Virus record (IMG/VR): IMGVR_UViG_3300017650_000002
From: a virus
Taxonomy: Duplodnaviria; Heunggongvirae; Uroviricota; Caudoviricetes
Direction: 5' to 3' (one strand)
DNA: 64,000 nucleotides
A program made the translations under genes and the position numbers. Shown piece by piece: positions 11,482 to 61,978 of this stretch (its first letter is position 1; every line of letters starts with the position of its first letter). Under the pieces are notes generated by a model. It had not been told where the DNA came from, searched no databases, and worked only from the letters and a program-made list of their open reading frames with translations.

Positions 11482-12639
11482 TTACTCGTAAACTGTGATT
11501 GTTTGCTTCTTTGGTGTTACCTTTTGGACTGTAGCATAGTCCAGCTCATAGCCGTAGTGGCTATAGTAGCTGTAAAGCACTTTGTAGAACACTCCGTCAA
11601 TGTTGAAAACTGTGTAGCAGTCTTCTGCTCCACCTTCTCCACCACCGTCCTGTTCTACGAACACACCCTCTTCCAAGAAGTCACCGTCTGCCAGAATGGA
11701 ACTGAATTCATCCATGGCTGCTTCTCGTGCCTCTGCCACAGCCTCCGCATCGCTCATATCCACATTACGGAAGTAATAGCTTTCAGTGTCTACCTTGGTT
11801 GACAGCAGTTCCTTCAGGGTTTCTAGACTAATGGTCTTTGACATATAAATCTCCTTTAAATTAAGTTTCTCCAACACATTCATCATCTCTGTGTGGAGTG
11901 GTTTTAGAAAATGTTCCAGGTTCAGAATGATAAACTCTGAAGCCCACCCCTTTGTAAGGACTGTCACAGTTTTGTGCAGACTCTTATTCCAGGCTTGTTG
12001 TATTGTAATTGACTGTCCCTTATTTGTCAACTGAGGGATTAGCCACCGCTCCAGTGCAATAACAGCTATCTCCTCTTTGAACATCCGTATTTGGCTGTAC
12101 ATAGGAAGATTGTTGAACTTATTACGATCAATAAACACTTCGTGTCCATCTTTCAAACAAGTAGTGTACACTGGTTTCTCTGGATATGCAACCATCTCAT
12201 GCAAAAGATCATGTTCGTGTTGCTTTGGCACAAAGTCATCAAAGAATTCATCCTTAGTCTTGTATAAGGAAAGGAAGTCTTTGTTGCCATGCTCCACCTT
12301 CCAGTGTTCTTTCAAAGTGTTGTAGAGGATTCGGTTATACCTACCACTAGTCCTCTGACTCAGCACCAAAACATCCTGCACATGCTTCCACCAGAAGATG
12401 TCATAAGTTAGGTGGGACAATTTAATAGCTAATAGGTCCCTATTTACAGCCACTCCCCAGATTTGACTTTCGTAGGAAAAGTCGAACATCACTTCCCCCG
12501 GCATTACGCAGACATCCTCCCTACCATCAGGTAGGTAGTCCCTGCTATCTGTCCAAACATCTAAGTCTGTAGGTCTATCAGACTTCCTATGAATAGACCA
12601 AGTATTCATAGCCTTCCTTCCAACAACAATCTTACCCAT
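11482..12639 (-). CDS. hypothetical protein (386 aa)
   Basis: Long ORF; start trimmed to MGKIVVGRK because the 5' extension runs into the high-GC neighbour; no recognisable motif. Confidence 0.55.
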   Translation of the reverse strand: MGKIVVGRKAMNTWSIHRKSDRPTDLDVWTDSRDYLPDGREDVCVMPGEVMFDFSYESQIWGVAVNRDLLAIKLSHLTYDIFWWKHVQDVLVLSQRTSGRYNRILYNTLKEHWKVEHGNKDFLSLYKTKDEFFDDFVPKQHEHDLLHEMVAYPEKPVYTTCLKDGHEVFIDRNKFNNLPMYSQIRMFKEEIAVIALERWLIPQLTNKGQSITIQQAWNKSLHKTVTVLTKGWASEFIILNLEHFLKPLHTEMMNVLEKLNLKEIYMSKTISLETLKELLSTKVDTESYYFRNVDMSDAEAVAEAREAAMDEFSSILADGDFLEEGVFVEQDGGGEGGAEDCYTVFNIDGVFYKVLYSYYSHYGYELDYATVQKVTPKKQTITVYE

Positions 12640-13282
12640 TTGCCACACCCTCGTAGGTGTCCGCAAACTTGGGCTTGCCAGTCTGGGGTGTGGCATAGAG
12701 GTAGCTATTGAACGGTGCATCGGAAGTCAGCCAGGTTAGGTTGCCGAAACCGTCGATCCTGGCGACCGGCTTCACCTCGCTGGCCTGGGGCGCGGCAAAG
12801 AGCGGCATTTCGTCATGCTCCGCGACATGGCCAGCCGGACGCCAGTACACCCAAGCGTCGCTGCCTTCGTCGCGCACGCTTTCCAGCACATCTTTCTCGA
12901 TCCAGCAGACTGGCTGCGCCTCCCCGGCTACAGGGGCGCTTGCCATGTCATGGGCGATCTTCGCCGCGTCGGTTGCGCATCGCTCAAAGTTGTCGCGTGA
13001 AATGCCGAACCCCAGCGCGGTTTCGTAGTGGCTTGCGGCCACATCGCGCAGACGTTCAGCTAGCACCTCCGGATCAAACGCCGCCCGCTCATCGGCTACA
13101 GGGGCGCGCAGCTTGGATAGCAAGGCGGCCTGCACGGCAGCGCACGCCATCAACAGGCCATCTGGCGAATACGCTTCCTTGGAATTCGTTTCCCATGCTG
13201 CGGTAGCGATAGCCAGCAACTGGTCATCGCTGAACCCGATTTCTTGCCCTGCCGCCTGGGTAATGTTGTTCTGGTTAGTCAT
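12632..13282 (-). CDS. hypothetical protein (216 aa), compositional outlier (~62% GC vs ~42% background); paralog of 58799-59581
   Basis: GGAGGA RBS and TAAATG coupling to the upstream gene; shares the N-terminus MTNQN and motifs ASAPVAGEA and AAPQASEV with the 58.8 kb ORF. Confidence 0.55.
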   Translation of the reverse strand: MTNQNNITQAAGQEIGFSDDQLLAIATAAWETNSKEAYSPDGLLMACAAVQAALLSKLRAPVADERAAFDPEVLAERLRDVAASHYETALGFGISRDNFERCATDAAKIAHDMASAPVAGEAQPVCWIEKDVLESVRDEGSDAWVYWRPAGHVAEHDEMPLFAAPQASEVKPVARIDGFGNLTWLTSDAPFNSYLYATPQTGKPKFADTYEGVANG

Positions 13283-18355: not shown

Positions 18356-18392
18356 TTAATGGTTTCAGTGTCAACAACTTCACAGATATTTT

Positions 18393-20158: not shown

Positions 20159-20160
20159 AG

Positions 20161-20490: not shown

Positions 20491-20500
20491 CTATTTCTCC

Positions 20501-21416: not shown

Positions 21417-21460
21417 TAATTTCTCTCCTTCTGTTAAAAGACTATAAACCTACAGACAAC

Positions 21461-21724: not shown

Positions 21725-21824
21725 TTAGTCCTCCTGATCGTGATGCGTCATCATACCACGACTACTTACAAAAGACAATACTTCGTCTAAGTGCCATGGC
21801 TCCATCTTGTCATCCATTCTGGCG

Positions 21825-22370
21825 TCAATCTTTATGATATTTGCCATAAGATTCACCAAGGTTTTCTAGTTTATCTATTAAACTATCCCTAAAAATTGAA
21901 GCCATTTTAAATGCCTCTGATTCCCCATATTTTTCTATGGAGAACCACTTTGTGGTTCTTCCACCACTCGGGGATTTAGCAGAAGCTACGTAGTGAGTTA
22001 GCACACCATTAGTCCTCCCTAAATGCACCCCAACCTTTCCAGTGGAATTATCTTTCCTCTTTCTGGTATTTCTACTTTGGGCTTCCTTCAAGATCCAGCA
22101 ACAGTTGCCTTTACAGTAGTCGTCATCTACGTTAATCCTCTCAAGAGTTGCACCTTCAAAGTATTCTGCACCCATCTGCTCTAAAAATCCTTGGAATTTT
22201 TCCCACTTTGGGTCATAGGATATACCTCTCCCTCCATAGTTACAGTAGTACTTACTGTTTTTGTTGTTGCATCTCTTCTTCATATCGGCCCAGCTTTCGT
22301 AGATCTTACTACCTCTGAGTCCGTGCCTAAAGTTTGGGTTATTTGACCCATTTTGATTTAAATTTGTCAT
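21825..22370 (-). CDS. homing-endonuclease-like protein (HNH_3-like + AP2 domain), paralog of 18393 and 31383
   Basis: IYESWADMKKRCNN...YGGRGI...ERINVDDDYCKGNCCW and C-terminal AP2-like segment. Confidence 0.5.
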   Translation of the reverse strand: MTNLNQNGSNNPNFRHGLRGSKIYESWADMKKRCNNKNSKYYCNYGGRGISYDPKWEKFQGFLEQMGAEYFEGATLERINVDDDYCKGNCCWILKEAQSRNTRKRKDNSTGKVGVHLGRTNGVLTHYVASAKSPSGGRTTKWFSIEKYGESEAFKMASIFRDSLIDKLENLGESYGKYHKD

Positions 22371-22373
22371 ACT

Positions 22374-22940
22374 CTACCTATGATGGTCCCTCTCTACGAA
22401 ACTTCTGGTCTTCATATATTCTTCAATCTCCTCTAGGCTAAATGGTAGCATATGATTGTCTTTTCTGTTATCAATACCACAGTCAAAAATTTTTCCGCCA
22501 AGGTCAATTAACGACCCGTGGCAGTGTCCGTGTAGCATCCAACTTCCTTTGTCCATCCTATTCCAAGATAGCAGGGGAAAATGGCACATAATAATCTCTT
22601 GTTTGATGCCATTGCTAAGAGTTACTGAGATTTGCTTTAAATCTGAGATTGATTGGAAGACTTCTTTATGGTGTTGTTTTCTAAGTTGTGTGTGATTCCC
22701 CTTAATTAAATGTTTCTGACCATTAAGTCTGCTTATGTTGCTATAACCAACTTCTCTATCACCTAAACATTCGTCCCCAAGGATATATACTACATCGCCC
22801 TTACTAACAACTGTGTTCCAAGCTTCTATCAGAAGCTCGTCATGTTCTTGAATAGTTTCTCCACTACGGGTTTCTCTGCAAAATTCTAAAAGTCTTGCGT
22901 GCCCTAGGTGTAGATCCGATGAAAACCAAGTATTACTCAT
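22374..22940 (-). CDS. calcineurin-like metallophosphoesterase (Ser/Thr or nucleic-acid phosphatase)
   Basis: WFSSDLHLGH, GDxxxxG, GNH and GHxH motifs; start trimmed to MSNTWF. Confidence 0.6.
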   Translation of the reverse strand: MSNTWFSSDLHLGHARLLEFCRETRSGETIQEHDELLIEAWNTVVSKGDVVYILGDECLGDREVGYSNISRLNGQKHLIKGNHTQLRKQHHKEVFQSISDLKQISVTLSNGIKQEIIMCHFPLLSWNRMDKGSWMLHGHCHGSLIDLGGKIFDCGIDNRKDNHMLPFSLEEIEEYMKTRSFVERDHHR

Positions 22941-23096
22941 TATACCTCCAAAAGAATTGCATCCTCCAGTACCTGAAGTGCCCACACGGGGTCCTCAAAT
23001 ACACCCCCAGTACTCACTAACAGTTTAAATGAGTCAACATCATAACCCTTTTCTCTTAGGGCGTCAACCACCTCCAGAAGGTCTTTTACCTTAAGC

Positions 23097-24782
23097 TCAC
23101 GCATAATTTCCTCCAAAAGCAGAAAGAAGTCTCAAACTTCCGTCGACATTGTGTGAATTCTCATACTCATCGTCAAATGGTGACATTAGGTCCATTTGTT
23201 CTTGTGCTGCCACGGCATGGTCTGAAGAGTTTAACAGATCACTGACAACATTTGATTCAAACCCAGGCTCCAAATGAAAGATATTAACATTTGACAGAGT
23301 ATATCCTTTGACCCCAATAATTGGGGAATTAATCTTCAAACTCTTCTTGGCACGAGTAGCGGCGACATACAACAGATTCTGTTCTTGCCCCACAAAGCCA
23401 GCCCAGTTTCCACGCTCATCAGTCTCATGTGGTAGGAAGTCCTCAGCAAGTTCCACATTATCAAACTCAAGGCCCTTAGATCCATGGGCTGTAATCAACC
23501 TTACATCAGGATTCTTAGATGGACGATATCCTTCCAAGGCGTTCATGATTTCGTCGTAACGGCCATCCTTGATAAACTTCACCACACGTTTAAGCTCCTG
23601 ATCAGAGCTTGCATCAACTTCAGACAGAAGCTCGGACCAGTTCACATAGGGAACCAAGGACTGATGCTTCACACTCTTCATGTCTCCACGGCTTAAGGCC
23701 AGGGTAGAAGACATCATGGCCTTGAAGTCAGACACGTCAATCGACATGTTAACATTCTTACCTTCCAAGATCAAAGTCAGTGCCGTTTCAATAAGCAAAG
23801 CATTTGTCCTGAAAATAATAGTGTACGGGCTTCCGTCTATCTTGTCAACAATCTTTGTGGAGATGTCTTCATTTCCAAAGAACTTGAGTGTGCGATTGCC
23901 AGAACTATCCAAAAGGATATCCTTTGCAACCTCAGCAATTTCTTGCCCAAATCGGAAAGACTTTGACAAAGAATACTCAGGCCAGTCACAAATCTGCATC
24001 GCGTTTAAACTGCCACGCCACCCATAAATACTCTGATGGTCGTCACCAACACCAACAACCTTACCTTTGTGATTCAGAATAACATCCAGTAGGCACCCAT
24101 TCATATCCTGAAACTCATCCACATAGACAATCTCGTACTGGTCAAAGTTTGGCTTCGATAGCTGCCAAAGCTTGAGATAGGTGTCATGAGTGATTTTGAT
24201 ATCACTCTTTGGATCCTTTCTTAGGTCCCAAAGCTGTCGAGCATACTTCAGGACACGCTGTGCGTACGTCTTTCGGTCAAAACTGTCAAGCTTAAGGACT
24301 TTTTCAGCTTCTCGGAAGGAGACATGCTTCTCCTTAATCTCCATATCGCCAGAATACTCAAAATTTGACACGGTAGATAGAATGGCATAACCCATGGCAG
24401 CGGATGTCACGCTACGTGAGTCGGTAACGACGAACGGAGCCACCTTGAAGTAACGAGCCACCTCAGACCCAGTACCGCAAACGTTATTGTACTTACCACC
24501 AACACCAGGAATACGAACAAGCTTGTGCTTGATGCTATCCGCATGGCTACGATAGGCATAGCTGTGTGCAGTCCTAACCTCTACGTGGGCAGGAAACTTA
24601 CTACGTGCCTCGTCTGCCATATGCTTGTTGTACGCAATGTACAAGCTTGGAACCTTGTAGGCATTTGCAGCAAGAGTTAGTGTAGTAGTTTTTGCAGCAC
24701 CAGCACGGGCTGAAACCTTAACCTTTTGAGTTGATCCGATGGCTTCAACGATTTCAACCTGCTCTTGTGTTGGGGTAAACAA
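23097..24782 (-). CDS. UvrD/Rep-family SF1 DNA helicase
   Basis: Walker A ARAGAAKTTTL, motif II VYVDEFQD, motif VI TAHGSKGLEFDNV. Confidence 0.65.
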   Translation of the reverse strand: MFTPTQEQVEIVEAIGSTQKVKVSARAGAAKTTTLTLAANAYKVPSLYIAYNKHMADEARSKFPAHVEVRTAHSYAYRSHADSIKHKLVRIPGVGGKYNNVCGTGSEVARYFKVAPFVVTDSRSVTSAAMGYAILSTVSNFEYSGDMEIKEKHVSFREAEKVLKLDSFDRKTYAQRVLKYARQLWDLRKDPKSDIKITHDTYLKLWQLSKPNFDQYEIVYVDEFQDMNGCLLDVILNHKGKVVGVGDDHQSIYGWRGSLNAMQICDWPEYSLSKSFRFGQEIAEVAKDILLDSSGNRTLKFFGNEDISTKIVDKIDGSPYTIIFRTNALLIETALTLILEGKNVNMSIDVSDFKAMMSSTLALSRGDMKSVKHQSLVPYVNWSELLSEVDASSDQELKRVVKFIKDGRYDEIMNALEGYRPSKNPDVRLITAHGSKGLEFDNVELAEDFLPHETDERGNWAGFVGQEQNLLYVAATRAKKSLKINSPIIGVKGYTLSNVNIFHLEPGFESNVVSDLLNSSDHAVAAQEQMDLMSPFDDEYENSHNVDGSLRLLSAFGGNYA

Positions 24783-24792
24783 TTATCTCTCC

Positions 24793-24984
24793 TTAAAAGT
24801 CTGGGTATTCGGTCGATTCGGATACAACTTCGTCCCTAAGCATCAGCTTTATTTTCACGAAGCTTGTATCGTAGTATGCATATGCTTTGTGGAATTCTAG
24901 TTGTACAGAAAGATTTTCTCGAATAAAATCTTCGATCAAATCTCTAACTTCATTCTCAAGATCATGTCCTAGACTTTCCATCAC
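24793..24984 (-). CDS. hypothetical protein (63 aa)
   Basis: Small acidic ORF. Confidence 0.35.
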   Translation of the reverse strand: MMESLGHDLENEVRDLIEDFIRENLSVQLEFHKAYAYYDTSFVKIKLMLRDEVVSESTEYPDF

Positions 24985-25550
24985 CCCTCCTTGTAAAATA
25001 TGTGACCGCCGATGATTTTAACCACTTCCAAGTCTTTTGTCCACTTTGGAGGCTTTATCCTGTCTGAATGATACCACTTAGCCCCTGGCACAGGATTTTC
25101 AGAAATCCCGAAAACAGCATCATACGCCTCTTTATAAGCTAAGTCAAAGTCTTTCTTCGTAGGCTCTGACTGTTTGTGCTTATCCTGTCGGTAGGAAAAT
25201 TGGTACTTCTGTTCAACCACTCCACGGATAGTATTCGGCCAGCCCTTGTCCTTAACCCGTTCAAGGATTACATAAGCCACGGCACGCATCCCAATAGGTC
25301 CCTCCCCACGAGCTTCATACACTAAAGCTTCAGCAAGCCCTCCACACCACCGATGCTCGAACACACAGTTATGATAAGGAGGGTCTAAATTCAGTATGGA
25401 GCCTAGCTTCTGTGGATTTATCTGAAATACCTTGACATCTGAGTCTTTAACCCTCCAATCTGTGTAAGGAGTCCAGAAAGAAAATACAACAATCAGTGTT
25501 ATGAGTATTACAGCAGTGTAAGCTCCAAGCTTATCAATCAATTTTCTCAA
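24981..25550 (-). CDS. SleB-like cell-wall hydrolase with N-terminal membrane anchor
   Basis: Hydrolase_2-like core LAEALVYEARGEGPIGMRAVAYVILERV preceded by a TM helix. Confidence 0.5.
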   Translation of the reverse strand: MRKLIDKLGAYTAVILITLIVVFSFWTPYTDWRVKDSDVKVFQINPQKLGSILNLDPPYHNCVFEHRWCGGLAEALVYEARGEGPIGMRAVAYVILERVKDKGWPNTIRGVVEQKYQFSYRQDKHKQSEPTKKDFDLAYKEAYDAVFGISENPVPGAKWYHSDRIKPPKWTKDLEVVKIIGGHIFYKEG

Positions 25551-25944
25551 TCTCTACTCCTTTTGATTGCAGATAGTCTAAGCCATCTGTTTTTCTGTAA
25601 GAATAGCGATAGTACACCTTTTCGATATCGAAATCAACTAATTTTTTTGCACACTCTAGACATGGGGCGTGAGACACATACATCTCTGGATGCACGATGT
25701 AGAAGTCTGCATAGGCAAGCTTGTCAAGGGCGGCAATCTCTGCATGACGTACTGTCGGAAGGGTTGTATTGAACACAGACTCACAAACCTCTGTAGGCCA
25801 TCCTGGGGGCTGTCCATTACATCCCTGCGCTATGATATGACCACCATCGACAATCATGGCCCCAACCTTCAGCCTCTTAGCTTCGCTTGTCTGCCCGAAC
25901 CGTTCAGCCATGTCCATAAAAGCTTCAACGTATTTACGCTTCAT
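25534..25944 (-). CDS. dCMP deaminase
   Basis: HAEIAAL ... PCLECAK zinc motif and overall dCMP-deaminase length/pattern; start trimmed to MKRKYVEAF. Confidence 0.6.
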   Translation of the reverse strand: MKRKYVEAFMDMAERFGQTSEAKRLKVGAMIVDGGHIIAQGCNGQPPGWPTEVCESVFNTTLPTVRHAEIAALDKLAYADFYIVHPEMYVSHAPCLECAKKLVDFDIEKVYYRYSYRKTDGLDYLQSKGVEIEKID

Positions 25945-26132
25945 TTCCACCTCCAAACAACCCACACATACAAACCAAACTTCATAGGCTTTCCGGTAGA
26001 TGGGTCAAGTACGTGTAGATAGCCATTTTCCATCCTTCCGAAGTAGGACTTCTTTGCACAGATACTGTCCAGGCAAGTATCTGTATCCACAGGTAGACCC
26101 TTTGGCTTGATCTTCATTTTTCGCATTTTCAC
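25941..26132 (-). CDS. hypothetical protein (63 aa)
   Basis: Small ORF. Confidence 0.3.
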   Translation of the reverse strand: MKMRKMKIKPKGLPVDTDTCLDSICAKKSYFGRMENGYLHVLDPSTGKPMKFGLYVWVVWRWK

Positions 26133-26398
26133 TTTTTACAATCCTCCTTTTTAGACTTCCAGTTTGGATTATGGCAGTGTTGATGAGCAACACCAATCCC
26201 CAGTCCTATTACACGAAGTACAAAACTCCTGTGCCACTGCCAACCATTCTTTGGCCTTCTATATAGAAGTTGAGTTGGTGCGGAGATATGAACGATATCC
26301 TGACCCTCTCCACCAAACTTCCATTCAACTTTAGGAGTCAAGAGCATAATCGTGTAGTCACCAAAATGAAATGTGTACTCCCCTTTAATAAGTTCCAT
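26129..26398 (-). CDS. hypothetical protein (89 aa)
   Basis: ORF on the - arm. Confidence 0.4.
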   Translation of the reverse strand: MELIKGEYTFHFGDYTIMLLTPKVEWKFGGEGQDIVHISAPTQLLYRRPKNGWQWHRSFVLRVIGLGIGVAHQHCHNPNWKSKKEDCKK

Positions 26399-26783
26399 TT
26401 CCCCTGCCTCCTTCTAAATAAGACTTTACACGTCTCACCACTTCTTCGTGGTACATATTGAAACAAGGAACACCAAACATCTTAGCCACTTCCCAAGCAG
26501 TCCTAGTCCCGCCAGATATAGAGCTTCCGGACGGCTTTGAGTAGCACAACAGGAATTTGGATGGAGTTTCCAAGTCCTGACCCAAAACTTGGAACACGTT
26601 GCGAGTGTGCAGTGCACGAAGGCCACGGGTTAGTTTGTCCCACGCTGGGTGAATCTCAGAAGCAATTTTTACTGCCTCGTTGTACAAATTCCCTGGCTTA
26701 GGTAAGTACATTCCTGATTTTGGATTGTGTACGTGTCCATTGAAACCATTCCAAGGTAGAAATATCTCAAATTTATCCTCCAC
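26385..26783 (-). CDS. hypothetical protein (132 aa) with LOG/SLOG-like glycine motif (SGGTRTAWEVAK)
   Basis: Motif resemblance only. Confidence 0.4.
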   Translation of the reverse strand: MEDKFEIFLPWNGFNGHVHNPKSGMYLPKPGNLYNEAVKIASEIHPAWDKLTRGLRALHTRNVFQVLGQDLETPSKFLLCYSKPSGSSISGGTRTAWEVAKMFGVPCFNMYHEEVVRRVKSYLEGGRGNGTY

Positions 26784-27065
26784 TATTCTGACACCACCCC
26801 AAAACGCAGTGTCAGCACCATCAGCGCCACCAGACCTAAGAGTCCACCCCTTGTCGTGTAGTCTAGTCGCAACTCTCCATCAGACTTAAAATCTCTTTTG
26901 GGGTTTCCCTTGCGCCAACTCCTGTGTAGTATTTCATGCCAGTAATGCCACAGAAGCTACAACTGTAATCAGAATCAGCCAGAACCACGGACCCCGAGGG
27001 TTGTATTCACCAGCCATAGGATCACCAATGTAATTTGGCGTAATCATACAAAACATATTTCCTCC

Positions 27066-27308
27066 TTATCGGACAGCAGCCTTCATGGCTTTTTTGACAA
27101 TGTAAAAGTTTTTACCGTACAGCATATCAGACCACTCCTGGGCTTTAGCCCTGTTCCTTGTTCTGAAGTATACGTTCTCATCCATAGCGTTTTTCACATA
27201 GTAGTTTGTAGGATCCTTGAACTCATCTTCACTCCACTCGTGGTATGGCACAAAGACTAAATTTTCACCAATTTGATCCAAAATTTCATCATACTTACTT
27301 TTTGACAT
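27066..27308 (-). CDS. hypothetical protein (80 aa)
   Basis: Start trimmed to MSKSKYDEIL with GGAGG RBS. Confidence 0.4.
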   Translation of the reverse strand: MSKSKYDEILDQIGENLVFVPYHEWSEDEFKDPTNYYVKNAMDENVYFRTRNRAKAQEWSDMLYGKNFYIVKKAMKAAVR

Positions 27309-27390
27309 TCTACCTCCTGTGATTGACGTGCACATCATAGCACAAAAACTTTTCATGGGCAACAAAAAGCCCGCGCAAGGCGGGCATGGG

Positions 27391-27585
27391 TTACGTAAGG
27401 TTACGAACCTTCTCAAGGGCTTCCTGGGCGTCCTCAATGAGGGTTAGAAGGGCATCCTCAGCGTCGTGGTAATGTACCAGTCCTAGGTCAACCCCAGTCA
27501 CTGTTGTTCCGGCGTCTACGACCACGCCAAATTCTACAAAATTACCCTCTACGTCCTTAGACTTCTTAATTACTAGGTTGATCAT
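27391..27585 (-). CDS. hypothetical protein (64 aa)
   Basis: Start trimmed to MINLVIKK. Confidence 0.35.
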   Translation of the reverse strand: MINLVIKKSKDVEGNFVEFGVVVDAGTTVTGVDLGLVHYHDAEDALLTLIEDAQEALEKVRNLT

Positions 27586-28207
27586 CTTGACTTCCTTTTT
27601 GTTTAGTACGTGGCTTGCGAGTTGCTTTAGCCTTTTGTTCTGGATTTGCCATAGCCTTAAGTCGAGATACAATCTCTTCCTCCATCAGGTCTAGGTCGAA
27701 GTTTTCATTTAGCAGCTTATTGATTTCCTCTTCGCTCAGGAAACCGCTGTAGACATCTCTGAATAGCTTTGAGATATATTTGTCGTTAAATTCTGTCCAA
27801 GACTTAACGCTACTCATGTGTCCGCCAGCGCCATAAGATGCACCATGTACCATCATGGATGAGTTTGGCATGACAACAAACTGTTTGTTGGCTAGAAACA
27901 GCATTGTGGCTGCACTAGCAGAATATGATTCGAGAATTCCTACAGTTTCTGCTGGGGTATTCTTAATGGCATTGTAAATTGGAAGAGCTACATCAAGTCT
28001 TCCTCCTGGACATCCAATAAACCGGAATAGAAAGATGTCGTCTTCCGAGGACGTTTGAAGCAACGACAGCAGACCAGTGTAATCCCTTGCATTAATTATC
28101 GCACTGTCGAAATACACTGTGTAGGTGTTGCTGACGTTTTGTTCTTTTGAAATCATGATTGGATCAGACATCCTCTCATCCTCTGTATCGTCACTGACTC
28201 TTTTCAT
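27566..28207 (-). CDS. ClpP-family serine peptidase
   Basis: ClpP-like core GGRLDVALPIYNAI...ESYSASAATMLFLA...MMVHGAS; AGGAGGA RBS before MKRVSDD. Confidence 0.5.
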   Translation of the reverse strand: MKRVSDDTEDERMSDPIMISKEQNVSNTYTVYFDSAIINARDYTGLLSLLQTSSEDDIFLFRFIGCPGGRLDVALPIYNAIKNTPAETVGILESYSASAATMLFLANKQFVVMPNSSMMVHGASYGAGGHMSSVKSWTEFNDKYISKLFRDVYSGFLSEEEINKLLNENFDLDLMEEEIVSRLKAMANPEQKAKATRKPRTKQKGSQDDQPSN

Positions 28208-28958
28208 TCTTATCCTCCTGCTCAAAAGCTTTAATCCACTCACGGACAATACCATGACGGACAATATCACTGTATTCATCAAAATCTACATATCCAGCAC
28301 CGATACTTGGATGTGATTGTGAGATTTCAATCAGTTTTCTCAGCCCGCTGCCAGCCTCTAGCTCGCTCTGAGTAATATCCCCGCACAACACCATTGTTGA
28401 ATTCTTTCCTTGACGGGTTACGAGCTTCTTAGCATCCTTGAAGTTTAGGTCTTCAGCTTCATCGCAGATGATGAAGGCATCAGATAGGGAATAACCCTTG
28501 ATAACTTCCATAGGTACAAATTCGATAACACCCGATTCAATGTAGAGTTCCGTAACATTCTTTCCGAGATATTCATACATGACACTCAGCACAGGACCTA
28601 GCCAAGGTTGCATCTTTTCGACTAAAGTACCCTTAAAAGCCCCTAGGGACTTCGTGTTTGACACGTTAGGCCTTGTCAGGTATATCTTCTTAATTTCCCC
28701 CATCCTGAGCTTTCGGCACGCGATAGCTGTTGGAATGTAAGTCTTTGACGTACCTGCATACCCCGTAGCAAACACCAAATCTTTGGTATTTACCAAATTA
28801 ATGTAGGCTTTCTGCTTTGGTGTCATAGCCTGTAGCACAGGTAGGTTACTCTCCCTATTCTCCATGTGTTTTCCAGAAACAACAGGAGAAGACTTGTCCT
28901 TTCTGTTCCTCGTAGTACGTTCTTCCATGAACTGCCTCTTACCATTTCTACGTGCCAT
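28191..28958 (-). CDS. phoH: PhoH-like ATPase
   Basis: Walker A GYAGTSKTY, Walker B ICDEAEDL, LCGDITQ motif; GAGGAGGAAG RBS. Confidence 0.65.
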   Translation of the reverse strand: MARRNGKRQFMEERTTRNRKDKSSPVVSGKHMENRESNLPVLQAMTPKQKAYINLVNTKDLVFATGYAGTSKTYIPTAIACRKLRMGEIKKIYLTRPNVSNTKSLGAFKGTLVEKMQPWLGPVLSVMYEYLGKNVTELYIESGVIEFVPMEVIKGYSLSDAFIICDEAEDLNFKDAKKLVTRQGKNSTMVLCGDITQSELEAGSGLRKLIEISQSHPSIGAGYVDFDEYSDIVRHGIVREWIKAFEQEDKNEKSQ

Positions 28959-29101
28959 ACTTCCTCCTCTTGAGCAACTTATACCTAAGTATACCATGGC
29001 ACACAAGCAACGTCAATACCTGTGAAATATTACGTAAGTATATGAAATAAAAGGAAATAAATAGGAAAGGGAAAGAAAAGAAAAATAATTGTTTTACCCT
29101 A

Positions 29102-57688: not shown

Positions 57689-57727
57689 AAGCCCCGGCCT
57701 AGAGATAGGTGCGGGGCTTTTCTTTAC
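57689..57727. terminator. bidirectional intrinsic terminator AAGCCCCG-...-CGGGGCTTTTCTTT at the convergence of the lysis cassette and - gene 57724-58308
   Basis: Read directly. Confidence 0.7.
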
Positions 57728-58308
57728 TTGTAGGAAATCATCTGGTATCCCCAGAAGGTGTCCAGTTCAGTCCAAAATAGATCCAGACTTCCCTGATTTT
57801 TCACATTGAAGTAGTTGTAAATGGGGATATCTGGATGATCAATCCAGTTCCTACTGTCTCCGGTGAAGTCTCTGCCTGGACGGTGAATACGTAGAATATA
57901 GATGTTCTCAGAACCAAATGTACTGATCAGAGGACCAAGCTCTTCGTTGAACCCACCATCGCTGCAAGCTGCAACAATTGATCCCTGGTCAGCTAAGGCC
58001 TTCAGCTTGACAGCTTCCGCTCGTCCAAAGTAATCTTTGCCGAAATTGGGCTTAACGATCATCTCTGAGACTCGAATTAGGGCTTGTCTGCAAGATACAC
58101 CACCTAGCTCAGCCCTGGGTAGCTCCTTGCCTTCGCGAGTGTACCAAGAGTTCCATAGAGCCTCTGAAATGCAATACAGCTTCAGGGTGAGGGCTATTAG
58201 CTCAGTCTTGAAGCTGAAAGAGTGGGTGCCATACTTGCGCTTGAAGTAGGCGATTGCCTCGTCCTTGCCTGCGTCTGCTGGTGCATTGGCAATGATGATT
58301 TTAGTCAT
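57724..58308 (-). CDS. P-loop kinase, T4 gp1-like deoxynucleoside monophosphate kinase (putative)
   Basis: N-terminus MTKIIIANAPADAGKDEAIAYF resembles MKLIFLSGVKRSGKDTTADFI of T4 dNMP kinase; size 194 aa. Confidence 0.4.
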   Translation of the reverse strand: MTKIIIANAPADAGKDEAIAYFKRKYGTHSFSFKTELIALTLKLYCISEALWNSWYTREGKELPRAELGGVSCRQALIRVSEMIVKPNFGKDYFGRAEAVKLKALADQGSIVAACSDGGFNEELGPLISTFGSENIYILRIHRPGRDFTGDSRNWIDHPDIPIYNYFNVKNQGSLDLFWTELDTFWGYQMISYK

Positions 58309-58370
58309 TGTTTCTCCTTATAAAAGATGAACTCCCATTGTACCACAGAAACATGCAACGTCAATGAGAC

Positions 58371-58399
58371 TTGACAACCAGAAAAATCTGGGCTAAGAT
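58371..58399 (+). promoter_or_regulatory. sigma70 promoter: -35 TTGACA, 17-nt spacer, -10 TAAGAT, heading the replication module
   Basis: Read directly. Confidence 0.5.
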
Positions 58400-58429
58400 G
58401 GAGGCCTCAGTCAAACAAAGGAGAAAGAT

Positions 58430-58786
58430 ATGGAAGCAACTGAAGTTATGACGCATCTGTATGGAAAGACTTATGCAGAAGTAGTTGAATCCTTGAGTGT
58501 TCAAGACGATCAGGGGGATTGTTGCGGTTGGGCAGACTGTGAAATAACAGATGAGATTTATCATCTAGATGGGTCTGATGAAGCTGTGTTGGTTAAAGTC
58601 ATTCAGTATGACTATTCCAGTGATTGTAGTGATAGATGTGTGGTAAACTTCATCTTTGATCTAGGTGATAGCAAAGGCTTGATCTTAGGGTATGACCTGA
58701 GTGCGGGGTCAGGGTCTGGTTGGAGCTATGGAGCCTTTGTATCATTGAGTTACAATAAAGAGATAGTTGCTTCTGTCAGCTATTAA
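58430..58786 (+). CDS. hypothetical acidic Cys-rich protein (118 aa)
   Basis: AAGGAGAAAG RBS. Confidence 0.45.
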   Translation: MEATEVMTHLYGKTYAEVVESLSVQDDQGDCCGWADCEITDEIYHLDGSDEAVLVKVIQYDYSSDCSDRCVVNFIFDLGDSKGLILGYDLSAGSGSGWSYGAFVSLSYNKEIVASVSY

Positions 58787-58798
58787 TAAGGAGGTTAA

Positions 58799-59581
58799 AT
58801 GACTAACCAGAACAGAACCGAACAGGCGGGCGAGCCTGTAGCCGAAATCTGTATCGGCGTAAGCACTACCGGGCAAGAAGCAACCATCTGCATTATGCAG
58901 CCGCATAATGACGGCACCACCACGGTGATCTATTCCCAAACGCACCCGCTCGGCGACAGCATGGGCCGCGCCTCGCTGGCAAGCGCACCTGTAGCCGGGA
59001 AAACCAGGGAGGCCGTGGATTACGTTCGCGGCGGCGCGCTGAACTTTGACGCACACCCAGATGGCGCCCCTGTAGCCGATGAGCTGGCGGCCGTAGACCC
59101 GTGCGGGTATGTCGCCGTCAAGGTGTCGGCGGTCGATTGGCTCAAGGATAAATTCCCGGCGCTGACGATCAAGGCCGGACTCTGCGAGCGCATCGGCGGA
59201 CGGCTCTATACCATCACTCGCCTGATGCGCGACCATGACGCCGCCCTGGCAAGCGCCCCTGTAGCGGGGGAGGCGGTGGCCGCCATGCTCCGCAATCGCC
59301 GGCATCTCGGGAGTGGCGACAACGGAAAGCAGTTTTACTCCGATTTTTCCGAATGGTTCCCCGCCACGGTTGGCCATGCCAGGGCTGTTACGTCGCCCAA
59401 CCGTAACGAGCTGGGAACTTGGGAGGTTCGTTGGCTGGTGGACGCCGCACCCCAGGCCAGCGAGGTAGACGTCATCGAAGAAATCGCCAAGCAATGGGAC
59501 GGTTGCATCTACGACGCCGGGCCGGGAGGCGATATAGATATTGGTCAGGCTATTCGTGGTGCAGCGAATAAGAGGAGTTAG
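58799..59581 (+). CDS. hypothetical protein (260 aa), compositional outlier (~65% GC); paralog of 12632-13282
   Basis: AAGGAGG RBS; first 16 nt ATGACTAACCAGAACA identical to the 13282 paralog; internal repeat LASAPVAG(K/E) x2; shared AAPQASEV. Confidence 0.55.
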   Translation: MTNQNRTEQAGEPVAEICIGVSTTGQEATICIMQPHNDGTTTVIYSQTHPLGDSMGRASLASAPVAGKTREAVDYVRGGALNFDAHPDGAPVADELAAVDPCGYVAVKVSAVDWLKDKFPALTIKAGLCERIGGRLYTITRLMRDHDAALASAPVAGEAVAAMLRNRRHLGSGDNGKQFYSDFSEWFPATVGHARAVTSPNRNELGTWEVRWLVDAAPQASEVDVIEEIAKQWDGCIYDAGPGGDIDIGQAIRGAANKRS

Positions 59582-59583
59582 GA

Positions 59584-59886
59584 ATGAGTTACAAAATGTT
59601 TCTTGATGACGAACGTTACCCTACAACACCAGATTGGCTAGTAGCACGAAGCAGTTTCGATGCTGTTCATTTTGTAAGTAACTTCGGAATGCCGAAGGAG
59701 ATTGCCTTTGACCATGACTTGGGTGGGGCTGACACCTCCATGGTATTTCTCAGGTGGCTAGAAGAGGAGTTGATACAAGGTAGGGTTGAATTTCCTGAAA
59801 ATTTCAGCTACACTGTGCACAGTCAGAACCCGGTCGGGGCTACAAACATCATGTGTCATATGGAGTCTCTACTAAAATATTTCTAG
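59584..59886 (+). CDS. hypothetical protein (100 aa)
   Basis: ORF starting 2 nt after the previous stop. Confidence 0.45.
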   Translation: MSYKMFLDDERYPTTPDWLVARSSFDAVHFVSNFGMPKEIAFDHDLGGADTSMVFLRWLEEELIQGRVEFPENFSYTVHSQNPVGATNIMCHMESLLKYF

Positions 59887-59899
59887 GAGGAACGTTGTA

Positions 59900-60184
59900 A
59901 TGAATGTAAAATTCATTCTGGCTTTGGCGCAGAAGATCCGGGAGGTTGATGGGGACAATAGCCTTGGGGCGAGCGCCTTAGCTGAGGAGCTAACCCCTTT
60001 CCTCGAAGAAATCCTTATGAAGGAATTTCTTGACCCATACATCGAGGCTTTGGCGGATTGTCGTGACTCATTTCCAGAGCCACAGGTTTCAAGCAGTCTG
60101 GAGCATTTTTGGGCTGAAGCTATGTCAGACCCACTAGCGGTTCCTGCTTACATAGAGGCTTGGTTGATGGAGTTACAAACATAA
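59900..60184 (+). CDS. hypothetical acidic protein (94 aa)
   Basis: GGAGG RBS. Confidence 0.45.
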   Translation: MNVKFILALAQKIREVDGDNSLGASALAEELTPFLEEILMKEFLDPYIEALADCRDSFPEPQVSSSLEHFWAEAMSDPLAVPAYIEAWLMELQT

Positions 60185-60199
60185 GTTGTAAGGAGAGGT

Positions 60200-61978
60200 A
60201 TGTCGTATATTGTAGAGCGTATGGGCCTAAGTATTGACTTAGCCCTAGAGGGTAAGGTTGCATGCCCTCGTTGTGTCAGTAAGGGGAAGGATAGGAGTGG
60301 AGATAACTTACAGGTGTACGGGCTAGATAATGATGGGCGTCCTAGAGGCGCTCATTGTTTTTCTTGTGAGTACACAATTGCTTCCGAAGAGTGGAAGGAA
60401 GAGAACGGGTATGTTGAAGAAAAGGAGTATGTGACAGTGGGTAAAGAATTCAATGACGAGGTGAGGAAGATCATTTTCAAAAGTACGGGAAATGATCCGA
60501 AGGGTTATCGTGGTATTAGGAAGGATGTCTCAGAGTTTTACGGAGTTCGCTACCGGTATAGCGAAGAGACGGGCGAGGTAGTGGAGACACTGTACCCCAC
60601 TACAATGGAGTACAAGCCAGCAGGGTATAAGGTACGAAAGCATCCAAAGGATTTTTCTGGCCCCTGGGGTGACACAGGGAAAGACTGTGAGCTATTTGGT
60701 CAGGTAAGGTTTCAGACGCAGACAGGCTTTTGTCTCATTGTTGGAGGGGAGCACGATGTTTTAGCAGCCTATCAGATCCTAAAGGATAATCAGAAGACAT
60801 CGAAGTTTGATCCTCCAGCTGTAGTATCTGCCACTATTGGCGAGTCAGGTGCTGTTAAGCAGATTCAGGCAAACTATCAATGGTTTAATCAGTTTAAGCA
60901 AGTTATCATTTGCATGGATAACGACACAGTGGGGAAGGCTTCAGCTGAGAAGATTGCCAGGGTACTGCCACGGGGCAAGGTCAAGATCATGAAGATGCGG
61001 TATAAGGATCCTAACAAGTACCTTGAACTTAAAAAGGATTCCGAATTTGTCTCAGACTTTTTCGGTGCTGGTACGTGGACTCCAGCCGGTGTTCACGGGT
61101 CTGGCAGTTTGTACGAAGCAGCATTGAACTATGCAGAGTTGAAGCAGCTATCTTTACCACCATTCCTGCCAAAGTCTAGGGAGATGTTTGGTGGAGAGGG
61201 TTTGGTCAAGGGAGAAATCTCTGTAATCTTTGCAAAGACCTCTGTAGGTAAGAGTAGCTTCGTAGATGCCTTTACGATCAACTGGGCGCTTTTTGAGCCT
61301 GAGGAAGTGGTTGGTGTTCTGTCCCTAGAAGCTACAGTGGACAAGTACTCAACAAACTTGTTTTCTAACTATTTAGGTGTTAAACTGATTCGGATGGCAA
61401 ATGCTCAAGAGCGTGTAGCCTATCTAAAGCAGCCTGACGTTAAAGCCAAGATTGACTACTTAACCAAGACAGAAGATGGCACAGATAGGTTTTTTGTGTT
61501 TGATGACCGTGGCGGTGATTTGGAAACTGTCAAGGAGAAGATCCTTGAAATGATTATTCAGTGTGGTGTTACAATTCTGATTGTTGACCCATTCTCAGAC
61601 CTTATGGCTGGTATGGATTTAAATTCTCAGGAAGAGTTTGTAGCTTGGATCAAGAAGCTTCTTAAGGAGTATCCTCAGGTTTCTCTGGTGCTGGTTTGCC
61701 ACACCAAGAAGAGCCAAACTAAGGAGGGTAATTTGGTGGAAGAGGACATCATTGGCACATCAACCATTATGAAGTCTGCCGCACAAACCATCTCGTTGGA
61801 GCGTGATAAGCTGAATCCCAATGATATCTTGAAGAACGTGACGGTTGTTACAATCCACAAGAATCGGCATTATTCATCAACTGGAGTGGCTGATAAGGTG
61901 TACTATGACTTCAAGACAGCACAGCTTATCAATTTTGAAGAATGGCTAAAGGATAACCCTAATGCCTTGGAACTATAA
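60200..61978 (+). CDS. bifunctional DNA primase/helicase (T7 gp4-like)
   Basis: N-terminal Zn ribbon CPRC...CFSC, TOPRIM-like LIVGGEHDVLAAYQ, DnaB-type Walker A GEISVIFAKTSVGKSSFV and Walker B LILIVDPFS. Confidence 0.8.
   Translation: MSYIVERMGLSIDLALEGKVACPRCVSKGKDRSGDNLQVYGLDNDGRPRGAHCFSCEYTIASEEWKEENGYVEEKEYVTVGKEFNDEVRKIIFKSTGNDPKGYRGIRKDVSEFYGVRYRYSEETGEVVETLYPTTMEYKPAGYKVRKHPKDFSGPWGDTGKDCELFGQVRFQTQTGFCLIVGGEHDVLAAYQILKDNQKTSKFDPPAVVSATIGESGAVKQIQANYQWFNQFKQVIICMDNDTVGKASAEKIARVLPRGKVKIMKMRYKDPNKYLELKKDSEFVSDFFGAGTWTPAGVHGSGSLYEAALNYAELKQLSLPPFLPKSREMFGGEGLVKGEISVIFAKTSVGKSSFVDAFTINWALFEPEEVVGVLSLEATVDKYSTNLFSNYLGVKLIRMANAQERVAYLKQPDVKAKIDYLTKTEDGTDRFFVFDDRGGDLETVKEKILEMIIQCGVTILIVDPFSDLMAGMDLNSQEEFVAWIKKLLKEYPQVSLVLVCHTKKSQTKEGNLVEEDIIGTSTIMKSAAQTISLERDKLNPNDILKNVTVVTIHKNRHYSSTGVADKVYYDFKTAQLINFEEWLKDNPNALEL

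What the first reader, a model, noticed from the sequence alone, without database searches (positions are those of the whole stretch)
58799..59581. Second copy of the high-GC paralog, with an internal duplication
Inside this 260-aa ORF the segment SLASAPVAGKTREAV...(approx aa 60-75) is repeated as ALASAPVAGEAVAAM (approx aa 160-175), with near-identical DNA (CTGGCAAGCGCACCTGTAGCCGGG / CTGGCAAGCGCCCCTGTAGCGGGGG). Repeat-mediated expansion inside a foreign-composition gene placed between the lysis and replication modules is unusual. The opposite strand (58742-59494) carries a long spurious ORF purely because of the GC skew, which further marks the segment as an island.
Basis: seen in the sequence. 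Interest (0 to 1): 0.6.

Follow-up and report, generated by a model that had tools for sequence, protein, structure and literature searches.

The report
Mosaic prophage gene with recombination linkers
The "internal duplication" is two copies of a short junction sequence that joins unrelated mini-domains in a gene this low-GC lytic phage took from prophages of its probable high-GC host (Achromobacter), and the gene's cassettes appear to be swapped at these junctions.

Summary
The 260-aa + strand ORF (58799-59581) is real. It has 60-66% GC in a 44% GC phage, and it is coding: substitutions against homologues fall mainly on codon position 3.

The repeat is real but is not a duplication. It is a 24-31 nt junction block encoding ALASAPVAG, and the sequences on either side of the two copies are unrelated.

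The ORF is a string of five modules separated by junction blocks. Each module has 70-99% identical counterparts in Achromobacter/Bordetella prophage genes, always in different combinations. Module C is 98% identical at DNA level.

The family uses three junction types in a fixed order: APVADE, then ASAPVAGE, then AAPQASE. All are nearly invariant at synonymous sites and use codons (CCT, GTA) that are minor elsewhere in these genes.

A near-identical phage contig (L187) has the same flanks, head and last module, but a different interior cassette. Both breakpoints lie on junction blocks.

The 12.6-kb ORF belongs to the same family but shares no module with this one.

Protein function is unknown. 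The most likely role is an early accessory protein for host or phage conflict. No curated family matches.

Verdict: a new variant of a known kind, namely recombination at conserved motifs generating mosaic phage genes.

The parts
58799..59581 (+). ORF2: 260-aa five-module mosaic gene (stop codon included). It is the second gene of a + strand operon that runs into the primase-helicase.
58799..58831 (+). Family head MTNQNRTEQAG. The DNA resembles the conserved family 5' end ATGACCAACCAGAACAACGCCGCCCAGGCGGC.
58832..58846 (+). Junction 0 (EPVAE, GAGCCTGTAGCCGAA). This is the left breakpoint of the cassette difference to allele L187.
58847..58972 (+). Module A (aa 17-58). Homologues are 55-83% identical and sit in varied positions of Achromobacter proteins.
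58973..58999 (+). G-type junction block, first copy (SLASAPVAG). This is repeat copy 1 of the finding.
59000..59059 (+). Module B (aa 68-87, KTREAVDYVRGGALNFDAHP). 98% nt identity to L105.
59060..59083 (+). D-type junction block (DGAPVADE; GCCCCTGTAGCCGATGAG).
59084..59242 (+). Module C (aa 96-148), the commonest module. 98.0% nt identity to Achromobacter prophage genes L006 and L052. AF2 predicts an autonomous small helix-helix-beta-hairpin domain (pLDDT 84).
59243..59272 (+). G-type junction block, second copy (ALASAPVAGE). This is repeat copy 2 of the finding. 134-172 BLASTN HSPs to other loci pile up here.
59273..59440 (+). Module D (aa 159-214). Homologues are 46-81% identical.
59441..59464 (+). 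Q-type junction block (DAAPQASE). This is the right breakpoint of the cassette difference to L187.
59465..59578 (+). Module E (aa 223-260). Shared with allele L187. 85% nt identity to L106. Homologues occur in Stenotrophomonas phage C121 and Burkholderia phage BCSR52.
58742..59494 (-). Spurious antisense ORF (250 aa), a by-product of high GC.
12632..13282 (-). ORF1: 216-aa member of the same family. It has the canonical D-G-Q junction order (cores at 13093-13105, 12925-12937, 12778-12790) and a different set of modules.
58371..58399 (+). Sigma-70-like promoter match (TTGACA-17-TAAGAT, 10/12) upstream of the operon 58430 -> ORF2 -> 59584 -> 59900 -> primase. This is a consensus match only.
59900..60184 (+). 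Low-GC 94-aa ORF. Its C-terminal 44 aa are 61% identical to a C-terminal module of the family, so it looks like a stand-alone version of a module.

Best explanation
What it is. ORF2 is an expressed + strand gene that an uncultured ~92-kb, 44% GC myovirus acquired from the prophage gene pool of Achromobacter/Bordetella, its probable host. It belongs to an uncurated family of 'beads-on-a-string' proteins.

Family layout. A conserved head (MTNQNNAAQAA) is followed by 2-7 unrelated modules, typically 45-90 aa. The modules are joined by three kinds of Ala/Pro-rich junction used in a fixed order:
- D: LSKLRAPVADER
- G: AALASAPVAGEA
- Q: (LY)AAPQASEA

Each junction is a nearly invariant DNA block with a core of about 20 nt and roughly 25-40 nt in all, synonymous sites included.

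How it works (shown).
- The blocks are islands of DNA identity between otherwise unrelated module sequences.
- Modules recombine almost freely across the family.
- Ends of homology between family genes cluster on the blocks.
- In a near-identical phage the interior cassette between junction 0 and the Q block is replaced by a different family module.

How it works (inferred).
- The blocks act as in-frame, order-preserving crossover sites for homologous recombination, by RecA or by phage annealing proteins such as the ERF encoded next to some family genes.
- Recombination occurs between co-resident prophages and infecting phages. This lets even a compositionally alien lytic phage exchange cassettes with resident prophages.

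Protein function (inferred, weakest step). It is probably an early-expressed string of small autonomous domains acting as accessory host-takeover, anti-defence or inter-phage-competition modules. This rests on its position in early operons and on family or module-E fusions to a dATP/dGTP pyrophosphohydrolase domain and a gp17 superinfection-exclusion domain.
For: Origin
- 67 protein hits, almost all Achromobacter (one Bordetella), are 46-99% identical but cover only 13-57% of the query in nearly all cases (two weak hits reach 60% and 79%).
- HSP boundaries cluster at aa 13, 58-69, 90, 145-160 and 213-220.
- DNA identity: 91.6% over 441 nt to an A. xylosoxidans Mu-like prophage gene, 98.0% over 203 nt (module C), and 98% over 101 nt (module B). 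There is no homology in the flanks.
- A related phage (primase 65% identical) has no GC island at this position.

Junction blocks
- The same codons, GCA AGC GCC CCT GTA GCC GGG GAG, are used in window and prophage genes.
- In 145 family ORFs, 144/172 APVA junctions that were not used for ascertainment read GCC CCT GTA GCC. Outside junctions CCT is 17% of Pro codons and GTA 11.5% of Val codons.
- 111/155 Q junctions are the identical 18-mer.
- Per-position identity is >=90% over about 20 nt and falls to 30-40% in the flanks.
- In 185,579 species genomes it gives 55 stretches: 38 Achromobacter/Bordetella, 2 other family-bearing MAGs, and 15 scattered singletons without a family ORF.

Shuffling
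- 226 proteins yield 947 modules in about 500 clusters, with 220 distinct architectures. Module C has 12 different upstream and 21 different downstream neighbours.
- Junction order is D->G 149 and G->Q 190, against reverse transitions of 5, 6 and 2.
- 61% of 490 internal ends of >=90%-identity HSPs lie within 25 nt of a junction core, against 16% for random positions.

Cassette swap in the phage lineage
- L187 matches window 58632-58844 (98.1%) and 59446-59628 (97.3%). Its interior is a single different family module, 71% aa identical to a module of P0092.

Coding strand and context
- Codon-position test supports the + frame.
- Homologues lie in prophage early regions: Mu-like after Mor/GemA, and lambdoid between ERF/YqaJ or ParB/SSB/RdgC and xis/int.

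Autonomy of modules
- Module C is modelled at pLDDT 84 with a 57-sequence alignment.
- It also occurs as the N-terminal domain of many small stand-alone proteins.
Against: - No experiment shows recombination at the blocks. Block identity could be a consequence of shuffling (hitch-hiking or gene conversion) rather than its cause.
- The locus set was ascertained with the G-block 18-mer. The D and Q statistics avoid this, but they come from the same ORFs.
- HSP-end and neighbour counts are not phylogenetically independent.
- Only one alternative allele (a 586-bp contig) documents exchange in the lytic lineage, and the direction of that change is unknown.
- Host assignment rests on gene transfer only.
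- Protein function has no direct support. There are no Pfam, PHROG, NCBIfam or PADLOC hits for ORF2.
- The full-length AF2 model is unusable (pLDDT 38).
- Module C has no structural match in PDB.
Confidence: 0.8

Rival explanations
1. This is a genuine internal (segmental) duplication or repeat-mediated expansion of a domain within the gene.
For: Two 31-nt copies, 87% identical and 270 nt apart. The G block occurring twice is unusual for the family: GDGQ/DGDGQ orders are rare, about 1 each in 226 proteins.
Against: Similarity is confined to the 24-31 nt block. The segments following the two copies (modules B and D) and those preceding them (A and C) are unrelated. Each has its own separate set of homologues in other genes. 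The same block occurs in hundreds of other genes.
Confidence: 0.03
2. The junction blocks are conserved for a reason at protein or translation level: a flexible Ala/Pro linker, with less-used CCT-GTA codons acting as a translational pause for co-translational folding of each mini-domain. Shuffling happens by illegitimate recombination, and the blocks are simply retained.
For: The junction peptides look like typical Ala/Pro-rich interdomain linkers. CCT and GTA are minor codons in these genes (17% and 11.5%). Modules appear to fold autonomously.
Against: Invariance covers essentially all synonymous sites over a core of about 20 nt, tapering over roughly 25-40 nt in all, not only the two minor codons. 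Ends of homology and the L187/window breakpoints coincide with the blocks. Illegitimate recombination would not preserve frame and the D->G->Q order so strictly. The two ideas are not mutually exclusive.
Confidence: 0.1
3. The blocks are targets of a dedicated site-specific machinery, such as a shufflon-type recombinase, a nuclease, or a retroelement-type diversifier.
For: The motif is short, highly conserved, repeated and lineage-specific.
Against: The repeats are direct and in frame, not inverted. The genomic contexts differ (Mu-like prophage, lambdoid prophages, a lytic myovirus) with no gene consistently adjacent. There are three different block sequences rather than one site. No reverse transcriptase or template repeat was seen next to the genes inspected, but this was not searched systematically.
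Confidence: 0.05
4. The GC-rich ORF is a metagenomic assembly chimera, or a non-functional passenger.
For: There is a sharp compositional discontinuity. The source is metagenomic.
Against: The same gene with the same flanks is on 5 contigs from different runs and collections. An allele with identical junctions to the flanks comes from another sample. The ORF is intact with its own RBS and abuts the next gene's RBS. The substitution pattern indicates purifying selection.
Confidence: 0.02

Closest known systems
Ea22 / exo-xis region genes of lambdoid phages (PMC10834534, PMC7093339)
   Same: Both are early-transcribed accessory genes lying between the recombination genes and xis/int of temperate phages. 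Ea22 genes are described as mosaic, with a common N-terminal part and unrelated 'portable' C-terminal domains; one variant carries DUF551, a domain that also occurs in a phage dATP/dGTP pyrophosphohydrolase. Homologues of ORF2 occupy the equivalent position, and 3 of 114 carry the dATP/dGTP pyrophosphohydrolase domain.
   Different: There is no sequence relationship: no Ead_Ea22 or any other Pfam hit for ORF2, and none for Ead_Ea22 in 114 family members. ORF2 has no central coiled coil. Ea22 has not been described with ordered, nucleotide-invariant junction blocks. Here the gene also sits in a lytic phage.
Recombination between conserved motifs in T-even tail-fibre adhesin genes (gp37/gp38 conserved motifs; Tetart et al. 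1998). Cited from my own knowledge, not checked here.
   Same: Short conserved sequence motifs delimit variable segments inside a coding gene. They serve as crossover points that swap segments in frame between phages.
   Different: Those are receptor-binding proteins, and the variable segments are loops of one fold. Here the swapped units are whole unrelated mini-domains of a non-structural early protein. There are three ordered junction types, and exchange runs between prophages and a lytic phage of very different GC content.
Modular theory of phage evolution with 'linker' or boundary sequences (Susskind & Botstein 1978; boundary sequences in lambdoid phages, Clark et al. 2001). Cited from my own knowledge.
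   Same: Short conserved sequences at module borders are proposed to guide homologous exchange of functional modules.
   Different: Those are classically intergenic, act at the scale of genes or operons, and are rarely as sharply defined. Here they are intragenic and in frame, with a core of about 20 nt (roughly 25-40 nt in all), and there are statistics over hundreds of junctions.
Morons / horizontally acquired accessory genes, and 'polyvalent proteins' of phages and conjugative elements (Iyer et al. 2017). Cited from my own knowledge.
   Same: A compositionally foreign gene is inserted neatly between resident genes. It is a multi-domain protein combining several small conflict-type domains.
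   Different: Morons usually bring their own promoter and terminator, whereas ORF2 is embedded in an operon. Polyvalent proteins are very large and mostly built of recognisable enzymatic domains, whereas here the modules are typically 45-90 aa and almost all uncharacterised.

Membership tests
Achromobacter/Bordetella junction-joined mosaic family (unnamed, uncurated) | Conserved head MT(N/T)QN..AAQ with conserved 5' DNA | tested here: met
   ORF2 reads ATGACTAACCAGAACAGAACCGAACAGGCGGGC and ORF1 reads ATGACTAACCAGAACAACATTACCCAGGCGGCAGGGCAAGAAATC. The family consensus is ATGACCAACCAGAACAACGCCGCCCAGGCGGC....
Achromobacter/Bordetella junction-joined mosaic family (unnamed, uncurated) | D, G and Q junction blocks with the family's exact codons | tested here: met
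   ORF2 has the PVA core 4 times plus one Q block. ORF1 has D, G and Q blocks. Codons are identical or differ by 1 nt from the prophage genes.
Achromobacter/Bordetella junction-joined mosaic family (unnamed, uncurated) | Modules shared with other members in different combinations | tested here: met
   All five ORF2 modules have homologues in other members. Those of A-D have varied neighbours in the clustering, and those of E sit in proteins of differing architecture.
Achromobacter/Bordetella junction-joined mosaic family (unnamed, uncurated) | Canonical junction order D->G->Q | tested here: inconclusive
   ORF1 is canonical DGQ. ORF2 is (D')-G-D-G-Q, a rare doubled order that it shares with its closest relative P0002.
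Achromobacter/Bordetella junction-joined mosaic family (unnamed, uncurated) | Location in a prophage early region of a high-GC Alcaligenaceae genome | tested here: not met
   Homologues do lie there. ORF2 and ORF1 lie in early-type operons of a 44% GC lytic-type myovirus. This makes them captured members rather than resident ones.
Ead/Ea22 (Pfam Ead_Ea22, IPR025153) | Ead_Ea22 coiled-coil signature | tested here: not met
   No Pfam hit for ORF2 or ORF1 at E<=1. No Ead_Ea22 hit among 114 family members.
Ead/Ea22 (Pfam Ead_Ea22, IPR025153) | Position between recombination genes and xis/int; mosaic C-terminal domains | tested here: met
   This holds for the prophage homologues L004, L006 and L007. 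It is an analogy of position and organisation only.
Tandem or internal domain duplication | Similarity extends over the duplicated domain, not only a short motif | tested here: not met
   The repeat is limited to 24-31 nt. The flanking modules fall in different clusters.
Shufflon-type site-specific inversion system | Inverted repeats flanking invertible segments plus a dedicated recombinase | tested here: not met
   The blocks are direct repeats in one reading frame. No recombinase is adjacent in the window (L002 gene list).
Diversity-generating retroelement target | Template repeat, reverse transcriptase, adenine-specific substitutions | not tested
   No systematic search was done. Variation here is replacement of whole modules, not point substitutions.

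The most novel reading that the evidence does not exclude
The three ordered, nucleotide-invariant junction blocks may form a selected 'assembly standard' shared by the phages and prophages of Achromobacter/Bordetella. Because the D, G and Q blocks differ from each other and occur in a fixed order, any crossover between two family genes gives an in-frame, order-preserving chimera. The family would then work as a combinatorial library of hundreds of mini-domains, typically 45-90 aa and presumably aimed at host or rival phages. Every co-infecting element could draw on it, including a lytic phage with 20 points lower GC, which keeps a docking gene (head + junction ... Q block + module E) into which prophage cassettes are swapped during infection.
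Probability: 0.4. Interest if true: 0.8.

Novelty: new variant of a known kind. Interest (0 to 1): 0.62.

Why it matters
- It turns an apparent oddity (a repeat in a GC island) into a clean natural example of intragenic module exchange guided by conserved junctions. That idea goes back to the modular theory of phage evolution but is rarely seen this sharply. Here it rests on junction-level statistics over hundreds of genes and a matched pair of alleles that differ exactly between junctions.
- It shows a lytic phage sampling the prophage gene pool of its host at near-identity (98% nt). This gives a host prediction (Achromobacter) for an uncultured ~92-kb myovirus.
- It points to hundreds of uncharacterised mini-domains (about 500 clusters in this sample) located in early regions, where anti-defence and host-takeover genes are usually found.
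- The junction blocks give a simple handle (an 18-mer) for harvesting the whole library, and a testable system for short-homology recombination.

Tried and rejected
- Near-identity DNA search of 58000-60400 against GenBank phages: no match.
- Pfam, PHROGs, NCBIfam and PADLOC for ORF2: nothing significant.
- PDB sequence searches with ORF2 and with the module C profile: nothing.
- AF2 of the full ORF without an alignment: pLDDT 38, unusable.
- A fragment alignment meant to serve as an MSA was mis-stacked by MAFFT on the junction peptides and was discarded.
- Searches for more alleles of the locus:
  - the flank 27-mer in IMG/VR found only the same phage;
  - a 20-mer in JGI metagenomes found nothing;
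  - neighbours of cREC_REC homologues in viral and metagenome contigs are distant phages with no junction cores or GC island.
- Literature searches found no description of this family.
- Single-linkage clustering of modules at loose coverage collapsed into one giant cluster because of residual junction residues, so it was redone with stricter coverage.
- Considered and rejected: domain duplication, assembly chimera, shufflon-type inversion, and GC skew as the cause of the antisense ORF.
Full report
**1. The observation**

The ORF at 58799..59581 (+) exists. It is 260 aa and has a GGAGG 4 nt upstream of the ATG.

GC rises from about 0.41 to 0.60-0.66 across the ORF and drops again at its 3' end. 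The window averages 0.44 (sd 0.044 for 300-nt windows). The only two stretches above 0.55 are 12551-13300 and 58751-59650.

The reported repeat is real: 58969-58999 against 59239-59269, 31 nt at 87% identity, 270 nt apart. It encodes SLASAPVAG (aa 59-67) and ALASAPVAG (aa 149-157), and similarity ends there.

The core GCNCCTGTAGCNG occurs four times in this ORF and twice in the other GC-rich ORF (12632..13282, - strand), and nowhere else in the window at one mismatch or fewer. That is 6 matches against 0.65 expected, and none of 100 shuffles reached 6.

The two GC-rich ORFs share only the MTNQN start and the junction peptides APVADE..A..DP, ASAPVAGE and AAPQASEV.

GC skew in the island is about zero. 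The 250-aa antisense ORF is therefore a consequence of high GC, not of skew.

**2. Coding strand and reality of the gene**

I aligned ORF2 without gaps to nine homologous DNA segments. The 207 mismatches fall 48/46/113 on codon positions 1/2/3 of the + frame. Synonymous codon changes are common in the + frame (for example 13 of 27 against L001) and rare in the antisense frame (1 of 27).

A promoter-like site (TTGACA-17-TAAGAT) lies at 58371-58399. It sits upstream of a + strand gene string: 118-aa ORF, ORF2, cREC_REC, 94-aa ORF, primase-helicase.

The identical protein is on five contigs from several runs and collections, always with the same neighbours. The gene is not an assembly artefact.

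**3. Where it comes from**

The phage backbone is only distantly related to cultured phages.
- The primase-helicase is 49% identical to those of rV5-like coliphages.
- The portal is 51% identical to that of Pseudomonas phage vB_PsaM_M1.
- The longest contig with the identical ORF2 is 92 kb.

ORF2, in contrast, hits 67 proteins that are almost all from Achromobacter, with one from Bordetella. Identities are 46-99%, but in nearly all cases only 13-57% of the query is covered; two weak hits reach 60% and 79%. HSP boundaries cluster at aa 13, 58-69, 90, 145-160 and 213-220, which defines five modules A-E.

At DNA level:
- 58835-59275 is 91.6% identical to a gene in an A. xylosoxidans Mu-like prophage;
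- module C (59064-59266) is 98.0% identical to Achromobacter prophage genes;
- module B is 98% identical to another locus;
- module E is 85% identical to another locus;
- there is no homology outside the ORF.

Where the window copy differs from its homologues, it tends towards A/T (21 against 10 versus L001). This is weak evidence of amelioration.

A related phage contig (primase 65% identical) has a single unrelated low-GC ORF between the dNMP kinase and the primase.

ORF1 at 12.6 kb gives the same picture with different modules.

In their home genomes the homologues lie in prophage early regions. One is in a Mu-like prophage after Mor/GemA. Others are in lambdoid prophages, between ERF/YqaJ or ParB/SSB/RdgC/methylase and xis/int.

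**4. What the repeat is**

The repeated sequence is an inter-module junction, and it is conserved as DNA.

Window and prophage genes use the same codons:
- GCA AGC GCC CCT GTA GCC GGG GAG for ASAPVAGE;
- GCC CCT GTA GCC GAT GAG for APVADE;
- GCC GCG CCC CAG GCC AGC for AAPQAS.

Of the 120 retrieved, 115 carry a family ORF, and their median GC is 0.63.

In one genome per species of 185,579 species it occurs in 55 stretches:
- 38 in Achromobacter or Bordetella;
- 2 in other MAGs that carry a family ORF;
- 15 scattered singletons without a family ORF, which is roughly the number I estimate by chance for an 18-mer in 596 Gb.

To avoid ascertainment bias I scored junctions other than the searched one, in 145 family ORFs.
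- 144 of 172 APVA junctions read GCC CCT GTA GCC.
- Outside junctions, CCT is 17% of Pro codons and GTA is 11.5% of Val codons.
- 111 of 155 Q junctions are one identical 18-mer.

Per-position identity is at least 90% over a core of about 20 nt and tapers over roughly 25-40 nt in all. It falls to 30-40% in the flanks.

BLASTN of the ORF2 region against all fetched loci gives 134-172 HSPs over 59240-59275 and 45-63 over 58960-59000. It gives only 5-9 over module bodies and none in the flanks.

**5. Shuffling**

In 226 distinct family proteins there are 2-7 junctions each. They contain 947 modules of at least 15 aa (median 58 aa) in about 500 clusters, and they show 220 different architectures. 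Module C (24 copies) has 12 different upstream and 21 different downstream neighbours.

The junction types follow a grammar. DGQ is the commonest order (72 proteins). Forward transitions are D->G 149 and G->Q 190. Reverse transitions are G->D 5, Q->G 6 and Q->D 2.

ORF1 is canonical DGQ. ORF2 is (D')-G-D-G-Q, a rare doubled order shared with its closest relative P0002.

Among 302 high-identity HSPs between distinct family genes, 61% of 490 internal HSP ends lie within 25 nt of a junction core, against 16% for random positions. The median distance is 16 nt against 83 nt. These pairs are not phylogenetically independent.

**6. Exchange inside the lytic phage lineage**

The exhaustive HMMER search returned P0130, a 123-aa protein with the same head and the same last module as ORF2.

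Its 586-bp contig (L187) matches the window at 58632-58844 (98.1%) and at 59446-59628 (97.3%). Between those points it carries one module of about 190 nt, where the window has about 600 nt (modules A-D). That module is itself a family module, 71% aa identical to one in P0092.

The left breakpoint is in GAGCCT(G/A)TAGCCG and the right one is in the AAPQASE block. This is the strongest single piece of evidence that cassettes are replaced between junction blocks, and that this happens in the phage as well as in prophages.

**7. Mechanism, and what is inferred**

Shown:
- nucleotide-invariant junctions;
- free recombination of modules;
- ends of homology concentrated at junctions;
- an allele pair differing exactly between junctions.

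Inferred: the blocks are crossover sites for homologous recombination between co-resident family genes. Several Achromobacter/Bordetella genomes carry more than one hit. Some prophages encode ERF/YqaJ next to the gene. Phages that encode their own recombinases show more gene mosaicism in general (PMC3784561).

Three different blocks in a fixed order would keep every crossover in frame and in order, and would limit self-deletion.

An alternative or additional role is a linker with minor codons that slows translation between domains. This cannot be excluded, but it does not explain invariance at all synonymous sites of the block.

**8. Protein function**

Function is unknown. ORF2 has no hit in Pfam, PHROGs, NCBIfam, PADLOC or PDB sequences.

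Among 114 family members the only recognised domains are:
- dATP/dGTP pyrophosphohydrolase (3 members);
- FtsK-gamma (2 members);
- an HTH domain (1 member).

Module E homologues occur in Stenotrophomonas and Burkholderia phages, and in one protein fused to a gp17 superinfection-exclusion domain.

Module C is predicted with confidence (pLDDT 84; helix, helix, beta-hairpin) as an autonomous mini-domain. It also forms the N-terminus of many small stand-alone proteins, one of them in an ERF/YbcO-type early region. It has no detectable structural relative.

A low-GC 94-aa ORF two genes downstream (59900-60184) is 61% identical over 44 aa to a C-terminal family module. Such modules therefore also exist as separate phage genes.

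Given the early-operon positions in all contexts, my best guess is a string of independent accessory domains acting on the host or on competing phages. Confidence in this step is about 0.4.

**9. Comparison with what is known**

The nearest described analogue is Ea22 of the lambda exo-xis region. It is early, lies between the recombination genes and xis/int, and is mosaic with portable C-terminal domains (PMC10834534, PMC7093339). There is no sequence relationship, and no junction-block system has been described for it.

Mechanistically the closest precedent is recombination between conserved motifs in T-even tail-fibre adhesin genes, together with the 'linker' idea of the modular theory. Both are cited from my own knowledge.

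Three literature searches found no description of this Achromobacter/Bordetella family.

I therefore rate it a new variant of a known kind.

**10. Verdict**

The foreign island and the spurious antisense ORF hold up. The internal duplication and the simple paralogy do not.

Interest is moderate to high. This is not a new principle, but it is an unusually clean and testable case, with a large and unexplored module library behind it.

Noticed in passing
window 59900-60184 (+): A 94-aa ORF of normal phage GC. Its C-terminal 44 aa are 61% identical (E 1e-8) to a C-terminal module of the Achromobacter mosaic family (P0038, L122). It is either a stand-alone resident version of a family module or an older, ameliorated capture.
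   Followed up: partly
window 59584-59886 (+): The gene directly downstream of ORF2 encodes a cREC_REC domain (PF20274, cyclic-phosphate processing receiver domain; E 9e-19; phrog_1479). Homologues in other large phages are 35-49% identical and have no GC island next to them.
   Followed up: partly
window 11482-12720 (-) and 12632-12640: The mechanically listed start of the 412-aa ORF downstream of ORF1 lies inside ORF1's GC-rich end. The PHROG match starts at aa 28. The real start is probably the ATG in AAATGGGTAA, which overlaps ORF1's stop by 8 nt, suggesting translational coupling. ORF1's own start overlaps the upstream gene's stop (ATGA).
   Followed up: partly
window 59084-59242 (module C) and proteins P0144-P0231: Module C is homologous to the N-terminal ~40 aa of many small stand-alone proteins (64-200 aa) from metagenomes. 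Their downstream parts carry other Pro/Ala/Gln-rich linkers (e.g. PPAAQ, QRTWVG). This hints that similar junction-joined families with other linker sequences exist in other bacterial groups. No Pfam or PHROG family covers it.
   Followed up: partly
all PVA junctions, e.g. window 58835-58843, 58988-58996, 59069-59077, 59258-59266: The invariant core CCTGTAGCC contains a TAG stop in the +1 reading frame. Each junction would therefore terminate a frame-shifted product. This may be incidental.
   Followed up: no
L001 (A. xylosoxidans JBMIXB010000057.1), gene at 10001-11134: The closest relative of ORF2 is the last gene of what looks like only the early half of a Mu-like prophage (repressor, transposase, MuB-like ATPase, DUF3164, Mor, GemA). 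It is followed directly by chromosomal genes on the other strand, so it is possibly a truncated prophage.
   Followed up: no
Genome-contig hits L130, L139, L147, L152, L157 (Bordetella trematum LMG 13506): One genome carries the G-block 18-mer on five different contigs. Several family genes therefore coexist in one cell and could serve as recombination partners.
   Followed up: no
window 57724-58308 (-) and 58337-58399: The dNMP kinase gene (phrog_139) is transcribed divergently from the ORF2 operon. Promoter-like hexamers lie on both strands in the 120-nt gap.
   Followed up: no
window 13800-29000 (- strand): ORF1 lies in a - strand array of nucleotide and DNA metabolism genes (dCMP deaminase, ATP-dependent DNA ligase, RNA ligase, helicase, ClpP-like protease, PhoH-like). 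Both captured genes therefore sit in early or metabolic gene arrays, not among structural genes.
   Followed up: partly
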